Under the pieces are notes generated by a model. That model saw only the letters and a list, made by a program, of their open reading frames with translations. It ran no database searches and was not told the origin of the DNA. 22,665 nucleotides of DNA, from positions 1 to 22,665 of IMG/VR virus record IMGVR_UViG_3300029846_000266. One strand, given 5' to 3'. Of the stretch, positions 15,811-20,010 are shown piece by piece; positions within the stretch are counted from its first letter, which is position 1; every line of letters begins with the position of its first letter. The DNA is from a virus. A program made the translations under genes and the position numbers.

Positions 15811-16029
15811 TAAGCGGATCGTGTGCGCCCGGTCATATGCCGCTGGCAAAAGTCCGCGGCGCACAAGTATTTCCGACAGGCAGACAATGGCGCCGTAAGC
15901 TTCTTCCGCGTGCGGCGTGTCCCTTGTGAACGCCTCCAGTGCGAACAGATACGCCTCTATGTATCTCCTGTCCCGTGTTTCGGAGTTCGGATACTCCCTG
16001 TCAAAGCCGACAAGTTCAAGTGCGCTCAC
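15751..16029 (-). CDS. Hypothetical early protein (92 aa, GTG start)
   Basis: SD TAAGGAGGTGAGGAC lies directly before the GTG at 16027-16029. The gene follows the second XRE gene in the early operon. Confidence 0.55.
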   Translation of the reverse strand: MSALELVGFDREYPNSETRDRRYIEAYLFALEAFTRDTPHAEEAYGAIVCLSEILVRRGLLPAAYDRAHTIRLSEPMTEVELIELLENMSAT

Positions 16030-16041
16030 GTCCTCACCTCC

Positions 16042-16245
16042 TTACTGCGCCGTCTGTTCCACAGGCAGTTCAAATAGCTTCTCGATGTTACACCCAAGCA
16101 CATTGGCAAGTTTGGGAAGCACCGCGCTTTTTGGCGAACTTATACCGCGCTCCCATTTGGCAATGGTCGAGCGATCTACTCCCATTGCTCGTGCTAAGTC
16201 AACTTGCCTTAACCCCGCCTCTTGTCTGAGCCGTGCTATATTCAT
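16042..16245 (-). CDS. XRE-family HTH protein (67 aa from MNIARLRQEAGL)
   Basis: The HTH is LRQVDLARAMGVDRSTIAKWERG. ATG 16243-16245 lies 7 nt after GAAGGAGG. Confidence 0.75.
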   Translation of the reverse strand: MNIARLRQEAGLRQVDLARAMGVDRSTIAKWERGISSPKSAVLPKLANVLGCNIEKLFELPVEQTAQ

Positions 16246-16253
16246 TGCAATTG

Positions 16254-16346
16254 CCTCCTTCGCTATGTGAAAATGTGCGATATTGGAAACTTTTACGCTA
16301 TGTCCTCTTTCGCTATGTAAAAATGTGCGATAATGGAAACTTTTAC
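16254..16346. repeat. Direct repeat, 2 x 43 bp at 50-bp period (40/43 identical), containing three copies of CGCTATGT
   Basis: The two units are 16254-16296 and 16304-16346. The repeat sits between the two XRE genes and includes the SD of the downstream gene and the stop of the upstream gene. Confidence 0.9.
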
Positions 16347-16561
16347 TGCGCCTGTATCGGAGCAAACAGCTCGTCAATGCTTACATTCAGTGCCCCCGCA
16401 AGCGTGGGTATTTCATCTCCGTACACAGGGCGCTTGCAGTTGAGGATCCTGGAAAGGGTGTCTTTTCTCATTCCGGTTCGCTCTGCAACAACTTTTTGCA
16501 TTCGCCCTTCTTGCTCGATGATTCTCTTAAGATTTCTATTAACGATGTAGCTCTTTTCCAT
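16343..16561 (-). CDS. Cro-like XRE-family HTH protein (72 aa)
   Basis: This is the first gene of the leftward operon, divergent from the CI-like gene. The HTH is QKVVAERTGMRKDTLSRILN. Confidence 0.75.
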   Translation of the reverse strand: MEKSYIVNRNLKRIIEQEGRMQKVVAERTGMRKDTLSRILNCKRPVYGDEIPTLAGALNVSIDELFAPIQAQ

Positions 16562-16601
16562 TTAATCGCCCCCAACTCAACATACAATAGAATTTGTATC
16601 T

Positions 16602-16630
16602 AATATACTCTACGTTCCGTTGAGTGTCAA
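16602..16630 (-). promoter_or_regulatory. Leftward early promoter (TTGACA-N17-TATATT)
   Basis: Read on the minus strand: -35 at 16625-16630 and -10 at 16602-16607. Confidence 0.6.
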
Positions 16631-16661
16631 GCTATATTTTTTGCGTTAGCTCAATTTCCCG

Positions 16662-16689
16662 TTGACTTTTGCCCAACTACATGTATAAT
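16662..16689 (+). promoter_or_regulatory. Rightward repressor promoter (TTGACT-N16-TATAAT)
   Basis: Read on the plus strand. It lies 21 nt upstream of the ATG of the CI-like gene, which has SD AAGGAG. Confidence 0.6.
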
Positions 16690-16709
16690 CAATCCAAGGA
16701 GTTGATTGC

Positions 16710-17201
16710 ATGAGTGTCACCGAAATAGGGCGGAGGCTCAAAAAAGCACGCCTTGACGCGAAAATGACGCAAGCCGAGGCTGCCAGGAATCTAGGAGTAT
16801 CGTTTCAGACAATAAGCAGTTATGAGCGCGGGATAAACCGCGTCGATAGTGACACACTTATGAAACTGTGCGCTATATATAAGACCTCCGTGGGCGAATT
16901 GCTGAGAACTCCGGCATGGTCAAAAGATATGCGCGAGGAATATGAACGTGCTTCCGAAGAACGTAAAGACCGACTTATCGAGTTATGGGGCTGTCCCGAC
17001 TTCCTCATTGAACGGGAAAATCAGAAGCGTGAACCGGACACGTCACATCTATCTGCTTTAGATGAAGCCATCCTTTATGCTTATCATAGAGCCACGAAGG
17101 AGGACCGGGAAATGTTCGATAATTTAGTCCGTCGCTATGTGCCCTCCTTTGAAGGTGAGCAAGAGGACCCCGCAGATCAGGCACCGGCAAGTGCAGGCTG
17201 A
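16710..17201 (+). CDS. CI-like prophage repressor, XRE-family HTH (163 aa)
   Basis: The HTH is MTQAEAARNLGVSFQTISSYERG. A C-terminal non-HTH domain is present, and the gene is divergent from the early operon. Confidence 0.8.
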   Translation: MSVTEIGRRLKKARLDAKMTQAEAARNLGVSFQTISSYERGINRVDSDTLMKLCAIYKTSVGELLRTPAWSKDMREEYERASEERKDRLIELWGCPDFLIERENQKREPDTSHLSALDEAILYAYHRATKEDREMFDNLVRRYVPSFEGEQEDPADQAPASAG

Positions 17202-17224
17202 TTGACTTCAACGAATACAAGAAA

Positions 17225-17248
17225 AAGCGCGGCCTGTAGCCGCGCTTT
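17225..17248 (+). terminator. Hairpin after the repressor gene (AAGCGCGGC-CTGTA-GCCGCGCTT); a weak terminator
   Basis: The stem is a perfect 9 bp. Only TTT follows on the plus strand. Confidence 0.4.
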
Positions 17249-17287
17249 GGGAGGAGGTGTTATGCAACGTCCGCTGCTCTAGAAGTT

Positions 17288-17677
17288 TTGGGTTTAACCT
17301 TTGCGCTATATGTCGTAGGCAGGCTACTGGCGAACTATGAAATGTATCGAGAGGATCAGGAAAAAGATGATTTTCTAAACAAGCTGCTTGCAGGGGCTGC
17401 TTGTTTATGCTTCTATTTAGGTATTATATCGACCGGCATTGTGTATCTGGTCCAGATATACCCACGAAAAAGACTAGAGAAAATCGTTAGCCGTGAAACC
17501 CGGGAGGAATGCGAAAAACACCATGAAATCGAAATTAATGCTCTAAAGCGAGAGCTGCACAGCATAAAAAAAGAGATGGGCTTTCAAGAAGCGCTCTGGA
17601 AAGACCGCGAAATCCGCTACAAGTATAAAATCGAGGCATTGCAGTACGAGCTCTCTCAGCGCTGTGGGCGCCAATAA
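17288..17677 (+). CDS. Membrane protein with a C-terminal coiled coil (129 aa, TTG start); possible superinfection-exclusion or lysogenic-conversion function
   Basis: It has two hydrophobic segments (LTFALYVVGRLL and LLAGAACLCFYLGIISTGIVYLV) followed by a charged heptad-like region. It lies downstream of the repressor on the same strand. Confidence 0.5.
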   Translation: MGLTFALYVVGRLLANYEMYREDQEKDDFLNKLLAGAACLCFYLGIISTGIVYLVQIYPRKRLEKIVSRETREECEKHHEIEINALKRELHSIKKEMGFQEALWKDREIRYKYKIEALQYELSQRCGRQ

Positions 17678-17704
17678 AAAAGCCGCCCCTCCCGAGGCGG
17701 CTTT
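17676..17704. terminator. Bidirectional intrinsic terminator between convergent genes
   Basis: AAGCCGCC-N8-GGCGGCTT is flanked by an A-run on the left and TTTGGTT on the right. The T-run is strong when read on the minus strand. Confidence 0.7.
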
Positions 17705-17710
17705 GGTTGA

Positions 17711-18187
17711 CTATTTTCTTCGTTCAAGCAGCTTGTCCCTAATCATTATTCTCCCTGCTGTGTCTGATAACCTGCCAGATTTGAGAAGCTGCAAATACCT
17801 CATAGCTTTACTGCGTACTTTGCGAATCTGGTTTTGGTTTCTGCTTATGTAATGGCGTCGGTCGATAAGAAACGGCTCTTTAATGTATGATTCATCAATG
17901 GGTATCATTTCACTTATCAGAAACACTCTTTCGCGCGATGCTATTTCTCCAATGTGGTAATAAATACAGTTGCCTTCGCCACGCTTCTGCTCCTCTCTGG
18001 CAATTTTCTTCTTGTAGTTTTCTACTTGGCTGCTCAAAGGGATGGCCCAATCTATTCCGTCGTGGTCTTTCAAAAGATAATAGAACGGCCTGTTTTCGCA
18101 TTTATTTTGAATGAGATACTTATTGGAAAACTCAACAAAGTACCTGTCCTGCACCTTATAAAGTCCGTTTTCTATCAGCCGCTCCAT
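17711..18187 (-). CDS. ToxN/AbiQ-family (type III toxin-antitoxin) endoribonuclease-like toxin (158 aa)
   Basis: By-eye similarity to ToxN: LYKVQDRYFVEF..NK.ENRPFYYLL...WAIPLSSQ versus FYTISSKYIEYL...KAFIGIVL...YLAPLTSPK, plus a shared MIPI motif. The size is typical and SD is GGGGAG. Confidence 0.65.
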   Translation of the reverse strand: MERLIENGLYKVQDRYFVEFSNKYLIQNKCENRPFYYLLKDHDGIDWAIPLSSQVENYKKKIAREEQKRGEGNCIYYHIGEIASRERVFLISEMIPIDESYIKEPFLIDRRHYISRNQNQIRKVRSKAMRYLQLLKSGRLSDTAGRIMIRDKLLERRK

Positions 18188-18196
18188 TCTCTATCT

Positions 18197-18231
18197 CCCC
18201 AAAAAAGAAGCCCTCCGCATGGGCAGAGGGC
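18197..18231 (-). terminator. Intrinsic terminator immediately upstream of the toxin SD
   Basis: On the minus strand, GCCCTC-N10-GAGGGC is followed by TTCTTTTTT, ending 10 nt before the ATG. Confidence 0.75.
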
Positions 18232-18373
18232 CTTTCTAGCCTGGTTCTTATACCCCGCACTCAGGCAAGCGGCCGTCGTAAGCAAGTCGCACTTTTATAG
18301 GCCGCTGGCGACAGGCGGCATAAGGCAATGACGGCGAACTTTGTTCGTGTCTGTGGAAAGCAATTGCTTCCCT
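18232..18373 (-). ncRNA. Candidate ~140-nt leader / antitoxin-position RNA (no tandem repeats)
   Basis: The segment lies between the predicted promoter and the terminator and has no ORF. Short helices occur at 18330-18335/18272-18277 and 18301-18319. Confidence 0.4.
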
Positions 18374-18379
18374 ATTGCC

Positions 18380-18408
18380 ATCATACGCTATTGTATTTCA
18401 AATTGCAA
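18380..18408 (-). promoter_or_regulatory. Promoter for the leader-toxin unit (TTGCAA-N17-TATGAT)
   Basis: Read on the minus strand. Palindromes lie nearby: ATTGCAAT at 18402-18409, ATGAATTCAT at 18411-18420 and AAGCAATTGCTT at 18358-18369. Confidence 0.5.
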
Positions 18409-18483
18409 TAATGAATTCATGTTTTTCTGAGCTTTCTGCTCTAGACAGTAATTTCTTTTACAGCATGTCAGTTCAGATATTTC

Positions 18484-20010
18484 ATGTTATTTAAAACAAT
18501 TCAAATTCAAGAAGGTGATGCTGTGTCCAACATGATGTATCTCCGCAAGAGCCGCGCGGAGGAGGGGCAGAGCACGGAGGAGGTGCTCTCGAAGCACCGG
18601 GCCGCGCTGGAGGAACTGGCCGACCGGCTCGGCCTGCCCGTGGACGGGGTGTATGAGGAAGTGGCGTCCGGTGAAAAGCTCTATGCGCGCCCGGAAATGC
18701 TCAAGCTGCTCGAGCGCATCCGGGCCGGCGAGGTAGAGGCCGTGCTGTGCATGGACATCGACCGCCTCGGGCGCGGCGGCATGGCTGACCAGGGCACCAT
18801 CCTGGACGCCTTCCGCGAGTCCGGCACGCTGATAATCACGCCTGAGAAAACCTATGACCTCACAAATGACGTCGATATCGAGATGACGGAGTTCAAGGCG
18901 TTCTTCGCCAGAGCCGAGTGGCGCGCCATCCGCAAGCGCATGCGCCGCGGCCTGATGCAGACCATAGAGGCAGGCGGCTACACGGCCAACGCGCCCTACG
19001 GCTACCGCCGCTGCCGCATCGGCAAGCTGCCATCGCTGGAGGTCATTCCCGAGGAAGCGCGTTTCGTGCGCTATATCTATGAGCGTTACCTCGCCGGTAT
19101 CGGCGCGCAGACCATAGCGCAGGAACTCAACGCCATGGGGAGCACCCCACGACGCGGGGCCGAGTGGAGCCGGAACACGGTGCGGCACGTACTGCGCAAT
19201 CCCACCTTCGCCGGTAAAGTCGCCTGGAACCGCGTGAAGCACTACCGCCCCGGAGCTCACGGGAAGGAAACGCACCACGTCGTTTACACCCCGGTGGGCG
19301 AGTGGCTGATGGTGGACGGCGTGCATGAAGCGATCATCCCATGGAGCACCTGGCTTGAAGCTCAGGAGCGCCGGAAGCAGCGATACATACCGCCCAGCAA
19401 CACTGGCCAGCGCGCAAACCCCTTCGCCGGCATCATCCGCTGCTCGAAGTGCGGAAACAATATGCAGCGCATGGGGACTAACAAAGGCGAGCCGTATCTG
19501 CTGTGTACCACAAAGGGCTGTACCGCCGGTGCGAAGTTCGAGTATGTAGAGGAGCGCATGGTCGAGCTGCTGTATGACGAGCTTGCCCGGCTCCGACTTC
19601 TCATAGACTCGGGCGCCGCGCCAAATGTTGACGCGCTGGAAGCCGCCCTTGCAGCCGCGCAGCGCGAGCTGGAGCGCGTACAGGCCCGCATCCCGCGTCT
19701 GTATGAATTCCTCGAGGACGGCACCTATGACCGCGCCACGTTCCGCTCAAGGCTCGACGCCGCCGAAAAAGAGCTTTCCGAGCTTGCGAGCAAGCGGACA
19801 GACCTCGAGCGCCAGATAGATGAGCGCCGCCGCAGCGACCCGCGCAAAGTCGCCGCCGCATTGGAGAATCTGGTCCAGCTCTACCCCACTATGTCCCCGG
19901 CCGACAAGAACAGTGCCCTAAAAGCACTCGGTGTGGAAGTAACCTACACCAAAGAGAAGAAAACCAAACCCCGCGACTTCACCCTGGAGCTCCAGCTCCG
20001 CGATTTTTAA
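18484..20010 (+). CDS. Large serine recombinase (phage integrase)
   Basis: The N-terminal resolvase domain has YLRKSRAEE (Ser nucleophile) and DIDRLGRGG. A recombinase domain (ARFVRYIYERYLAG..TIAQELN), a zinc ribbon CSKCGN...CTTKGC and a C-terminal coiled coil follow. The true start is probably GTG 18523 (after GAAGGTGA) or ATG 18532. Confidence 0.9.
   Translation: MLFKTIQIQEGDAVSNMMYLRKSRAEEGQSTEEVLSKHRAALEELADRLGLPVDGVYEEVASGEKLYARPEMLKLLERIRAGEVEAVLCMDIDRLGRGGMADQGTILDAFRESGTLIITPEKTYDLTNDVDIEMTEFKAFFARAEWRAIRKRMRRGLMQTIEAGGYTANAPYGYRRCRIGKLPSLEVIPEEARFVRYIYERYLAGIGAQTIAQELNAMGSTPRRGAEWSRNTVRHVLRNPTFAGKVAWNRVKHYRPGAHGKETHHVVYTPVGEWLMVDGVHEAIIPWSTWLEAQERRKQRYIPPSNTGQRANPFAGIIRCSKCGNNMQRMGTNKGEPYLLCTTKGCTAGAKFEYVEERMVELLYDELARLRLLIDSGAAPNVDALEAALAAAQRELERVQARIPRLYEFLEDGTYDRATFRSRLDAAEKELSELASKRTDLERQIDERRRSDPRKVAAALENLVQLYPTMSPADKNSALKALGVEVTYTKEKKTKPRDFTLELQLRDF

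What the first reader, a model, noticed from the sequence alone, without database searches (positions are those of the whole stretch)
17711..18408. ToxN/AbiQ-like toxin with the type III TA layout but no repeat-array antitoxin
The 158-aa ORF resembles ToxN/AbiQ endoribonucleases in its N-terminal Y..(D/S).Y...(L/F) and RP(F/Y) block, a PLSS/PLTS block and a central MIPI. Upstream on the same strand I read a promoter (TTGCAA-N17-TATGAT), a ~140-nt untranslated leader, and an intrinsic terminator ending 10 nt before the toxin ATG. This is the canonical promoter / RNA antitoxin / terminator / toxin layout. However, known type III antitoxins (ToxI, AntiQ, CptI, TenpI) are tandem repeats of roughly 34-45 nt, and I found no tandem repeat here. 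The leader instead carries short helices and a 12-nt palindrome (AAGCAATTGCTT) at the predicted transcript start. It could therefore be a single-unit or structurally different RNA antitoxin, or an antitoxin-less Abi toxin under attenuator control. The locus is lower-GC cargo next to the integrase, a typical defence-moron position.
Basis: partly seen in the sequence, partly recalled or inferred. Interest (0 to 1): 0.75.

Follow-up and report, generated by a model that had tools for sequence, protein, structure and literature searches.

The report
Prophage CptIN toxin with hidden RNA antitoxin
This is an ordinary type III (CptIN-family) toxin-antitoxin cassette carried by a gut prophage. Its RNA antitoxin was thought missing, but it is there as two tandem pseudoknots whose sequences have drifted too far apart for repeat finders to see.

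Summary
The 158-aa ORF (17711-18187, minus strand) is a CptN toxin, not a ToxN/AbiQ one. It scores 108.5 bits on NCBIfam CptIN (cutoff 90) and E 4.5e-25 against the E. rectale CptN crystal structure 4RMO. The AlphaFold model matches 4rmo_A at TM 0.82. Pfam ToxN falls below its cutoff.

No sequence repeat is detectable.

The leader still contains two adjacent H-type pseudoknot units, 46-47 nt apart (about 18325-18282 and 18281-18235). Both have the fold of the crystallised 45-nt CptI unit, including the A-rich loop. The two units are only 52% identical, the same as shuffled sequence, which explains the miss.

Nearly every intact homologous locus has the same two-unit array, terminator and toxin. 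Covariation is strong: 92.6% of cells pair against 27-51% in slid controls, and 15 of 20 pairs show compensatory changes. Units are conserved by position across loci.

So this is a canonical CptIN locus with a cryptic, diverged two-unit CptI. It sits as a moron between the integrase and the CI-like repressor of a prophage. The "no array" reading is not supported. The 12-nt palindrome is a 5'-terminal RNA hairpin that recurs in relatives.

The parts
18380..18408 (-). Sigma-70-like promoter of the cptIN operon (-35 TTGCAA 18408-18403, 17-nt spacer, -10 TATGAT 18385-18380)
   Evidence: Consensus scan matches 9 of 12 positions. A TATAAT-like -10 box lies at the equivalent place in nearly all related loci. 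Promoter function is inferred, not shown.
18355..18372 (-). 5'-terminal RNA hairpin GGGAAGCAAUUGCUUUCC.
   Evidence: The MFE fold pairs it. In 30 of 45 related loci a hairpin of at least 5 bp starts within 8 nt of the -10 box, against a shuffle mean of 4.6 and maximum of 11. The hairpin sequences are unrelated between loci. The palindrome occurs once in the window. A role as a stabiliser is inferred.
18282..18325 (-). CptI antitoxin unit 1. Pseudoknot core 18319-18286: S1 GCCGC/GCGGC, L1 CU, S2 GUCGC/GCGAC, A-rich L2 CUAUAAAAGU, 3' tail UUGC.
   Evidence: Found by the pseudoknot scan. Covariation for helices 1-2 gives 89.6% and 96.8% of cells paired, with 7 of 10 pairs changed on both sides. 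The CM hit at 18281-18325 has E 5.5e-12, but this is a training sequence. Unit boundaries are inferred by analogy with CptI of E. rectale.
18235..18281 (-). CptI antitoxin unit 2. Pseudoknot core 18272-18239: S1 CCGC/GCGG, L1 UU, S2 GCCUG/CAGGC, A-rich L2 GGUAUAAGAAC, 3' tail UAGA.
   Evidence: Found by the pseudoknot scan. Covariation for helices 3-4 gives 85.2% and 98.8% of cells paired, with 8 of 10 pairs changed on both sides. The CM hit at 18234-18279 has E 1.9e-10, again a training sequence. Identity to unit 1 is 52%, against a shuffled mean of 48% (sd 3.7).
18201..18233 (-). Intrinsic terminator between antitoxin and toxin (11-bp stem, 7 G-C pairs, U-tract)
   Evidence: Terminator scan. 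A terminator sits at the same place in the related loci. Its role in setting the RNA:toxin ratio is taken from the literature (PMC3401426).
17711..18187 (-). cptN toxin gene (158 aa). A GGAG-type Shine-Dalgarno sequence lies in 18188-18200.
   Evidence: NCBIfam NF047359 CptIN scores 108.5 bits against a cutoff of 90. PDB 4RMO CptN gives E 4.5e-25. The AF2 model has pLDDT 90, and Foldseek matches 4rmo_A at TM 0.82/0.84, E 4.8e-11.
17673..17704 (-). Terminator after cptN, shared with the convergent 129-aa ORF (17288-17677, + strand)
   Evidence: Terminator scan: 11-bp stem with a T-run.

Best explanation
The locus is a prophage-borne CptIN type III toxin-antitoxin cassette.

1. A constitutive promoter drives a transcript of about 170 nt. 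The transcript begins with a protective 5' hairpin and carries two tandem CptI pseudoknot units of about 45 nt each.
2. Most transcripts stop at the intrinsic terminator, so the RNA antitoxin is made in excess. Read-through transcripts express the CptN endoribonuclease.
3. By analogy with E. rectale CptIN (PDB 4RMO), CptN cuts the precursor next to the invariant G in each unit's 3' tail (UUG-C after unit 1, UAG-A after unit 2).
4. CptN then stays bound to the processed pseudoknots in an inactive ribonucleoprotein. The E. rectale complex has two toxins and two RNAs.
5. When transcription of the cassette stops, for example on phage takeover or loss of the prophage, the labile RNA decays. Free CptN then cleaves cellular or phage RNA and arrests growth. 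The outcome is either abortive infection or prophage addiction.

Shown here: the toxin's family and fold, the two pseudoknots and their evolutionary conservation, the terminator, and the prophage context. Inferred from the E. rectale and Pectobacterium paradigms: RNA processing, neutralisation, complex stoichiometry and the trigger.
For: - **Toxin:** the NCBIfam CptIN equivalog scores above its cutoff. PDB 4RMO gives E 4.5e-25 at 34% identity. The AF2 model matches at TM 0.82-0.84. The PLSS Ser-Ser pair and the NRP motif are conserved.
- **RNA in the window:** two adjacent H-type pseudoknots 46-47 nt apart. They have the same stem and loop plan as the 45-nt CptI_Er unit reconstructed from the primer in PMC4627078.
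- **A-rich loop:** both units keep a UAUAA loop whose A and U align with A29 and U30. Mutating those two bases abolishes antitoxicity in E. rectale.
- **Chance:** two such adjacent pseudoknots arose in 3 of 1000 shuffles, or 0 of 1000 with the loop motif required.
- **Covariation, 50 two-unit arrays:** 92.6% of cells pair against 27-51% in slid controls. Double-change cells number 111 against 12-31. Fifteen of 20 pairs show compensatory changes, and 0 of 500 shuffles reach the observed values.
- **Covariation, 90 distinct single units:** the result is the same.
- **Held-out arrays:** a covariance model built only from this clade finds just the two units in the 22.7-kb window. It also hits arrays it was not trained on, including E. 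rectale-type ones.
- **Layout:** 62 of 67 distinct upstream regions of homologues carry array, terminator and toxin. The five exceptions are an IS-disrupted locus, a pseudogene, a 39-aa fragment, a mis-anchored locus and a frameshifted duplicate.
- **Published ranges:** period and copy number lie within the CptI ranges of 40-48 nt and 1.9-3.4 copies.
- **Context:** the cassette lies between the integrase and the CI-like repressor in this prophage and in unrelated ones.
Against: - There is no experimental evidence for toxicity, processing or neutralisation at this locus.
- The two units share no more sequence identity than shuffled sequence does. That departs from the near-identical repeats reported for cptI (PMC12283969).
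- The three residues that specify the scissile adenine in CptN_Er (Asp81, Ser85, Tyr104) align to a gap, Arg87 and Phe106 here. The unit 1/unit 2 junction reads UUGC|UUA rather than UUGA|AAG. The cleavage rule may therefore differ, and the proposed unit boundaries are uncertain.
- No conserved cleavage motif was found 5' of unit 1.
- Matches of the clade model to true E. rectale-type units are marginal (E 0.007-0.15).
- The two CptIN loci tested so far gave no phage resistance in E. coli, so a defence role is unproven.
Confidence: 0.87

Rival explanations
1. Obligately heterotypic antitoxin. Units 1 and 2 are not redundant copies. One of each assembles with two CptN protomers into an asymmetric N2:U1:U2 ring, so both units are needed for neutralisation.
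For: There are exactly two units in nearly all loci. Units are conserved by position: 98 of 100 have their nearest neighbour in another locus at the same position. U1-U1 and U2-U2 identity to the window is 70-90% where toxins are 45-60% identical, while U1-U2 identity is 50-60%. The 3' tails differ systematically (CUUGCUUA against CUUGAAA). The known CptIN complex holds two RNAs (PMC4627078).
Against: In E. rectale a single unit gives full antitoxicity. Some relatives (L031, L033, L058, L094, L092) have near-identical units, so homotypic arrays clearly work. Positional conservation could simply reflect vertical descent of an old duplication, with divergence favoured to avoid misfolding or recombination between repeats.
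Confidence: 0.3
2. Only one of the two units is a working antitoxin. The other is a decaying relic or merely supplies a processing site.
For: The units are only 52% identical. The same question was raised for non-identical tenpI repeats (PMC12283969). In L012, unit 1 is visibly degraded while unit 2 is intact.
Against: Both units show compensatory base-pair changes in both stems across loci: helices 1-4 each have 3-5 pairs changed on both sides. Both also keep the invariant loop adenines and the 3' G. A relic would not retain these.
Confidence: 0.1
3. One reading: an antitoxin-less Abi toxin whose structured leader plus terminator acts only as a cis attenuator or riboswitch.
For: A terminator lies directly upstream of the toxin. 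The leader is more stable than shuffles (z = -2.9). No sequence repeat is found.
Against: Rfam finds no riboswitch or leader family at gathering threshold, and only sub-threshold chance-level matches otherwise. The leader's conserved elements are two CptI-type pseudoknots. The crystallised CptIN locus has the same layout of array, terminator and toxin. No antiterminator alternative was evident.
Confidence: 0.03

Closest known systems
CptIN of Eubacterium rectale (PDB 4RMO; Rao et al. 2015, PMC4627078) and the cptIN family of Blower et al. 2012 (PMC3401426)
   Same: The toxin is homologous and has the same fold (34% identity, TM 0.82). Two RNA units of about 45 nt lie upstream on the same strand. 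Each is an H-type pseudoknot with a short L1 and an A-rich L2 (UAUAA), and has a G just before the unit's 3' end. A terminator separates RNA from toxin. The hosts are Firmicutes of the gut.
   Different: The units are 52% identical, compared with roughly 84% in the E. rectale-type array L084, and TRF does not detect them. Units are conserved by position across a clade. The adenine-specifying residues Asp81, Ser85 and Tyr104 are replaced, and the junction reads UUGC|UUA. An extra leader of about 55 nt with a terminal hairpin lies 5' of unit 1. The cassette is prophage-borne, lying between the integrase and the repressor, whereas the 33 cptIN loci in the 2012 survey were all listed as chromosomal and none as phage.
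tenpIN loci with non-identical tenpI repeats (Sci Rep 2025, PMC12283969)
   Same: A type III antitoxin made of two non-identical tandem units that TRF misses, that had to be curated by hand, and that can still form pseudoknots. Also found in viral sequences.
   Different: The toxin family differs: NCBIfam TenpIN scores only 22 bits against a cutoff of 90. The tenpI variation reported is up to 35%, against about 48% here. That paper states that cptI repeats are nearly identical.
ToxIN / AbiQ (Pfam PF13958)
   Same: The same general type III logic and a distantly related fold in the Kid/MazF/CcdB superfamily. The layout is promoter, RNA, terminator, toxin.
   Different: The sequence match is below threshold (16.2 bits against 25). 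The structural match to AbiQ 4GLK is poor (TM 0.35, probability 0.47). ToxI units are 34-36 nt, form triplex pseudoknots and build heterohexamers.
AbiF/RCd22 of a Clostridioides difficile prophage (bioRxiv 10.1101/2025.04.15.648962)
   Same: A prophage-encoded toxin preceded by a non-coding RNA with two motifs and a terminator. The RNA neutralises the protein directly.
   Different: The toxin is unrelated (Abi_2/AbiD/F, HEPN-like). The RNA motifs are stem-loops that are not cleaved apart.

Membership tests
CptIN type III toxin-antitoxin | Toxin is homologous in sequence to CptN | tested here: met
   NCBIfam NF047359 (equivalog) scores 108.5 bits against a cutoff of 90, E 2.6e-31. phmmer against 4RMO chain A gives E 4.5e-25 over residues 4-138.
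CptIN type III toxin-antitoxin | Toxin has the CptN fold | tested here: met
   The AF2 model has pLDDT 90.2 and pTM 0.86. The top Foldseek hit is 4rmo_A at E 4.8e-11, TM 0.82/0.84, rmsd 2.5 Å. The next hits are CcdB and MazF at TM about 0.4-0.65.
CptIN type III toxin-antitoxin | Conserved RNase active-site residues (Ser-Ser/Thr-Arg cage; Asp81, Ser85 and Tyr104 specify the scissile adenine in CptN_Er) | tested here: inconclusive
   Ser52-Ser53 (PLSS) and Asn32-Arg33-Pro34 are conserved. Asp81, Ser85 and Tyr104 align to a gap, Arg87 and Phe106 (alignment; residue roles from PMC4627078). This fits an active RNase with altered base specificity, but activity was not tested.
CptIN type III toxin-antitoxin | Near-identical tandem nucleotide repeats upstream, detectable with Tandem Repeats Finder (the operational criterion of Blower 2012) | tested here: not met
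   TRF finds nothing at three settings. Unit 1 against unit 2 is 52% identical, against a shuffled mean of 48% (sd 3.7). Only 8 (default settings) or 15 (relaxed) of 62 related loci pass this criterion.
CptIN type III toxin-antitoxin | About 2 (1.9-3.4) upstream units of 40-48 nt, each folding as an H-type pseudoknot with an A-rich L2 | tested here: met
   Two pseudoknots lie 46-47 nt apart. Covariation is strong. A and U equivalent to A29 and U30 are conserved in both units. The ranges come from PMC3401426.
CptIN type III toxin-antitoxin | RNA unit is homologous to crystallised CptI_Er | tested here: inconclusive
   The stem and loop plan and the key loop bases are the same. The clade-only covariance model hits E. 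rectale-type units at the correct positions but with marginal E-values (L090 0.007, L089 0.016, L084 0.15). Intermediate loci score better (L087 4e-5, L094 1e-4).
CptIN type III toxin-antitoxin | Rho-independent terminator between antitoxin and toxin, same strand, with a promoter upstream | tested here: met
   Terminator at 18233-18201 and promoter-like site at 18408-18380. The layout is the same in relatives.
CptIN type III toxin-antitoxin | Toxin cleaves the precursor into units and is neutralised by them as an RNP (heterotetramer) | not testable with these tools
   This needs kill/rescue assays, RNA end-mapping and structural or biophysical work.
ToxIN/AbiQ (Pfam PF13958 ToxN_toxin) | Toxin matches the ToxN_toxin profile at the gathering threshold | tested here: not met
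   16.2 bits against a cutoff of 25. PADLOC AbiQ scores 18.3 bits, E 5e-4. AbiQ 4GLK matches at TM 0.35.
TenpIN | Toxin matches the TenpIN equivalog | tested here: not met
   NF047358 scores 22.2 bits against a cutoff of 90, over 38 residues only.
Known riboswitch or leader RNA families (Rfam 15) | Leader matches a curated covariance model | tested here: not met
   There are no hits at gathering threshold in the window. Only sub-threshold matches with E of at least 0.48 appear in 17600-18600.

The most novel reading that the evidence does not exclude
A whole clade of prophage-borne CptIN systems uses a fixed pair of two different pseudoknot RNAs. Unit 1 and unit 2 form orthologous lineages with distinct stems and 3' tails. 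One of each assembles with two CptN protomers into an asymmetric complex. The toxin's cleavage specificity has shifted away from the adenine rule of E. rectale CptN. Because these arrays are invisible to repeat finders, most of the CptIN family has been overlooked.
Probability: 0.3. Interest if true: 0.5.

Novelty: new member of a known kind. Interest (0 to 1): 0.3.

Why it matters
It removes an apparent exception. This toxin does have the standard type III RNA antitoxin.

The practical lesson is methodological. Type III loci have been defined by TRF-detectable repeats (PMC3401426). By that criterion only 8-15 of the 62 distinct CptN loci collected here would be recognised. The rest, including this common human-gut prophage cassette (the index lists its exact protein in 517 blocks of the collection), need structure-aware searches for pseudoknots or covariance models.

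The natural covariation also gives an independent evolutionary validation of the CptI pseudoknot fold. In addition, the fixed pair of non-identical units is a ready-made test of whether the two RNA positions in the CptIN heterotetramer are interchangeable.

Tried and rejected
- **Repeat finders.** TRF at the tool's lowest score and at the two Blower-2012 settings found nothing for the window. The repeat finder with a 6-nt seed gave only short chance pairs.
- **Rfam.** Nothing usable at gathering or E-value thresholds.
- **Nested MFE folding of the leader.** This gave a stable (z = -2.9) but different nested structure. It pairs parts of units 1 and 2 with each other. I rejected it because ViennaRNA cannot represent pseudoknots and the comparative data support the pseudoknots.
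- **ToxN/AbiQ and TenpIN membership.** Both are below threshold.
- **Palindrome as a protein operator.** It occurs once in the window, at chance level. The hairpin recurs in relatives with unrelated sequences, so an RNA hairpin is preferred.
- **A third unit or a conserved cleavage motif 5' of unit 1.** None was found.
- **Intact antitoxin-less homologues.** The only loci lacking an array were an IS-disrupted, 5'-truncated gene (L057), a pseudogene (L083) and a 39-aa fragment (L097).
- **GenBank phage genomes.** A single distant, unannotated hit (27% identity), so no annotated phage precedent was retrieved.
- **First automatic pairing of pseudoknots.** My first pass picked the terminator as a false third unit. 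This was corrected.
Full report
**Observation.**
- The ORF at 17711..18187 on the minus strand encodes 158 aa.
- A sigma-70-like promoter, TTGCAA-N17-TATGAT, lies at 18408..18380.
- An intrinsic terminator has an 11-bp stem at 18233..18208, and its U-tract ends at 18201. That is 13 nt before the ATG.
- A second terminator follows the gene at 17704..17679.
- The palindrome AAGCAATTGCTT is at 18358-18369.
- GC falls to 44-47% across 16000-18600, against 58-65% in the integrase and flanking DNA.
- No tandem repeat is detectable by sequence. TRF finds nothing at the tool's lowest score or at the default and relaxed settings of the original type III survey. A 6-nt-seed repeat search gives only short chance pairs.

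**The toxin.**
- Pfam ToxN_toxin scores 16.2 bits against a gathering score of 25, and PADLOC AbiQ scores 18.3 bits.
- The protein is a CptN. The NCBIfam equivalog NF047359 (CptIN family toxin) scores 108.5 bits against a cutoff of 90.
- phmmer against PDB sequences finds one hit, CptN of Eubacterium rectale (4RMO), at E 4.5e-25.
- An AlphaFold2 model (pLDDT 90.2) superimposes on 4rmo_A at TM 0.82/0.84 and 2.5 Å. The next matches are CcdB and MazF, and AbiQ is far down the list.
- It also belongs to a PHROG of unknown function (phrog_33519, E 6e-42).
- The PLSS Ser-Ser pair and the NRP motif are conserved.
- The three residues that Rao et al. describe as specifying the scissile adenine in CptN_Er (Asp81, Ser85, Tyr104; PMC4627078) align to a gap, Arg87 and Phe106 in the alignment.

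**The leader.** I reconstructed the 45-nt CptI_Er unit from the cloning primer in PMC4627078: AAGUUUACCACUGACCGAUAUGUGGUAUAUAAAUGGUCGGGUUGA. Reading the leader against it shows two units of the same plan.
- Unit 1 is GCCGC-cu-GUCGC-ca-GCGGC-cuauaaaagu-GCGAC-uugc, with its core at 18319-18286.
- Unit 2 is CCGC-uu-GCCUG-agu-GCGG-gguauaagaac-CAGGC-uaga, with its core at 18272-18239.
- The units start 46-47 nt apart.
- Each is an H-type pseudoknot with two stems of 4-5 bp, a short L1 and an A-rich L2 of about 10 nt containing UAUAA.
- The period and the copy number fall within the published cptI ranges of 40-48 nt and 1.9-3.4 copies (PMC3401426).
- The stem-2 sequences of the two units differ by fully compensatory changes.
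- In a global alignment the units are 52% identical, indistinguishable from shuffled sequence (48%, sd 3.7).
- In 1000 dinucleotide-preserving shuffles of the leader, two adjacent pseudoknots of this quality appeared 3 times. With ATAA required in both L2 loops they never appeared.

**Comparative evidence.** I collected 97 loci that encode relatives of the toxin: 13 from genomes, 25 from IMG/VR viral contigs and 59 from metagenomes.
- These gave 67 distinct upstream regions of at least 200 nt. Sixty-two show the same order: promoter, two adjacent pseudoknots 43-50 nt apart, terminator, toxin.
- The five exceptions are an IS-disrupted, 5'-truncated gene, a pseudogene, a 39-aa fragment, a mis-anchored locus and a frameshifted duplicate. 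No intact antitoxin-less homologue was seen.
- On a plain MAFFT alignment of 50 distinct two-unit arrays (A2), the four helices taken from the window sequence form standard pairs in 92.6% of cells. When the 3' partners are slid by 1-3 columns, the figure is 27-51%.
- Fifteen of 20 pairs show changes on both sides. There are 111 double-change cells against 12-31 in the slid controls, and none of 500 shuffles reaches the observed values.
- An alignment of the 90 distinct single units (A3) gives the same picture: 91.9% paired and 124 double-change cells against 8-38.
- That alignment has five invariant columns: the closing C-G pair of stem 1, two loop adenines, and a G in the 3' tail.
- The invariant loop A and the adjacent U/C align with A29 and U30 of CptI_Er. 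Mutating either abolishes antitoxicity.
- The invariant 3' G corresponds to G44, which stacks on Tyr104 next to the scissile A45.
- A covariance model built only from this clade (R1) finds just the two units in the 22.7-kb window (E 5.5e-12 and 1.9e-10, training sequences; next hit E 0.91).
- The same model finds arrays it was not trained on: L079, L012, L087 and L094 clearly, and E. rectale-type arrays L090, L089 and L084 marginally at E 0.007-0.15. All hits lie at the correct positions.

**A clade of cryptic, position-specific arrays.**
- With the TRF settings of Blower et al., only 8 (default) or 15 (relaxed) of the 62 distinct loci show a repeat with a 38-56-nt period.
- Within-locus unit identity is below 70% in 44 of 50 arrays.
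- Unit 1 resembles unit 1 of other loci, and unit 2 resembles unit 2. Identity to the window is 70-90% where toxins are only 45-60% identical, while cross-position identity is 50-60%.
- For 98 of 100 units, the nearest neighbour in another locus sits at the same position.
- The units differ systematically in stem 2 and in the 3' tail: CUUGCUUA after unit 1, and CUUGAAA or similar after unit 2.
- A few relatives (L031, L033, L058, L092, L094) have near-identical units.
- A 2025 survey reported non-identical, TRF-refractory repeats for tenpI, with up to 35% variation. It stated that toxI and cptI repeats are nearly identical (PMC12283969). Diverged units are therefore a known phenomenon in type III antitoxins but had not been described for cptI in the papers I could read.

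**The palindrome.** The 12-nt palindrome is the core of an 18-nt hairpin, GGGAAGCAAUUGCUUUCC, at 18372-18355. It begins about 7 nt after the -10 box, at the predicted 5' end of the transcript.
- In 30 of 45 related loci with enough leader, a hairpin of at least 5 bp starts within 8 nt of the -10 box. Shuffles give a mean of 4.6 and a maximum of 11. The hairpin sequences are unrelated between loci.
- The palindrome occurs only once in the window.
- I read it as a 5'-terminal RNA stem-loop, probably protecting the precursor from 5'-end-dependent decay. That function is an inference from general knowledge of Firmicute mRNA stabilisers. An operator is less likely.

**Context.** The window is a prophage end.
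- It carries a portal gene, a C5 methylase, a cell-wall hydrolase, several Cro/CI-type HTH genes, a large serine recombinase (18484-20010) and then a host FAD-dependent oxidoreductase.
- The cassette lies between the CI-like repressor module and the integrase.
- The same placement is seen in near-identical human-gut contigs. It also occurs in unrelated pig-gut prophages that use a tyrosine integrase and an S24-peptidase repressor.
- Twenty-five relatives lie on IMG/VR viral contigs, many close to contig ends.
- The index lists the exact protein in 517 blocks of the assembly collection.
- The 2012 survey listed all 33 cptIN loci as chromosomal and none as phage.

**Mechanism (inferred).** The proposed mechanism follows the E. 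rectale and Pectobacterium paradigms.
1. The promoter makes a precursor of about 170 nt that mostly ends at the terminator, which gives excess RNA.
2. Read-through yields CptN.
3. CptN cleaves next to the invariant G of each 3' tail and remains bound to the processed pseudoknots as an inactive RNP. In E. rectale this is a heterotetramer.
4. When synthesis of the labile RNA stops, the RNase is freed.

Whether the biological pay-off is abortive infection or prophage and plasmid-style addiction is open. CptIN_Er stabilised plasmids but did not protect E. coli from the coliphages tested. The replaced adenine-specifying residues and the UUGC|UUA junction suggest a shifted cleavage rule. The exact unit boundaries, and especially the 5' end of unit 1, could not be fixed.

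**Verdict.** The toxin call and the layout are right. The family is CptIN rather than ToxIN/AbiQ. The feature that made the finding look novel, the absence of a repeat-array antitoxin, is an artefact of looking for sequence identity. This is a new member of a known kind.

One modest point of interest remains. A widespread prophage-borne CptIN clade carries two long-diverged, position-specific pseudoknot units that repeat-based searches miss. This raises the testable question of whether the two RNA positions in the CptIN complex are interchangeable.

Noticed in passing
window 18355-18372 (-); related loci L004-L096, just downstream of their -10 boxes: A hairpin sits at the predicted 5' end of the cptI transcript. 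It is conserved in position but not in sequence: 30 of 45 loci have one, against a mean of 4.6 in shuffles. It is probably a 5' stabiliser of the antitoxin precursor.
   Followed up: yes
window 17711-18187 (-), residues about 83-87 and 106: The adenine-specifying residues of E. rectale CptN (Asp81, Ser85, Tyr104) align to a gap, Arg87 and Phe106. The unit 1/unit 2 junction has C rather than A after the invariant G. This hints at a different cleavage specificity.
   Followed up: partly
L098-L104; window 16343-20010: The cptIN cassette occupies the same slot, between integrase and CI-like repressor, in prophages with a serine integrase (this one) and in unrelated ones with a tyrosine integrase and an S24-peptidase repressor. 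This suggests a mobile moron cassette. The index lists the exact toxin protein in 517 blocks of the assembly collection; the near-identical contigs retrieved are from human-gut metagenomes.
   Followed up: partly
L031, L033, L058 (also L092, L094): A minority of relatives have near-identical units (83-87%). In L031-type arrays both copies carry the unit-1-type 3' tail (CUUGCUUACA), as if the array had been re-homogenised by duplication or gene conversion of unit 1.
   Followed up: partly
L057 (about 1-1200) and L083: In L057 an IS-type transposase C-terminus (…VVERTFGWLEKCRRLWKNCERK…) abuts a 5'-truncated cptN homologue, and the RNA array is gone. L083 is a cptN pseudogene with internal stops. 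No intact array-less toxin was seen.
   Followed up: partly
window 17288-17677 (+): A 129-aa ORF with no Pfam match converges on cptN and shares the terminator at 17673-17704. Its counterpart varies in size (111-198 aa) or is absent in near-identical prophages. It may be a second moron.
   Followed up: no
window 18335-18347 (-) and equivalent leaders (e.g. L004, L025, L028, L037, L043): A second small hairpin lies between the 5' hairpin and unit 1 (window CGAACaaaGUUCG). Several relatives have AAUGACG…CGUCAUCU followed by a C/U-rich stretch. Its function is unknown and it does not look like a third pseudoknot unit.
   Followed up: no
window 18484-18532 (+): The mechanical ORF for the serine recombinase is 508 aa, but gene calls in near-identical contigs are 492-495 aa and the Resolvase domain starts at residue 18. 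The true start is therefore probably around 18523-18532. That would leave roughly 115-125 nt of divergent intergenic space between int and the cptI promoter.
   Followed up: no
L079 about 1336-1442: This relative has an insertion of about 15 nt (a small hairpin, GCCUAUUUAUUAGGC) between unit 1 and unit 2, so the inter-unit linker tolerates extra structure.
   Followed up: no
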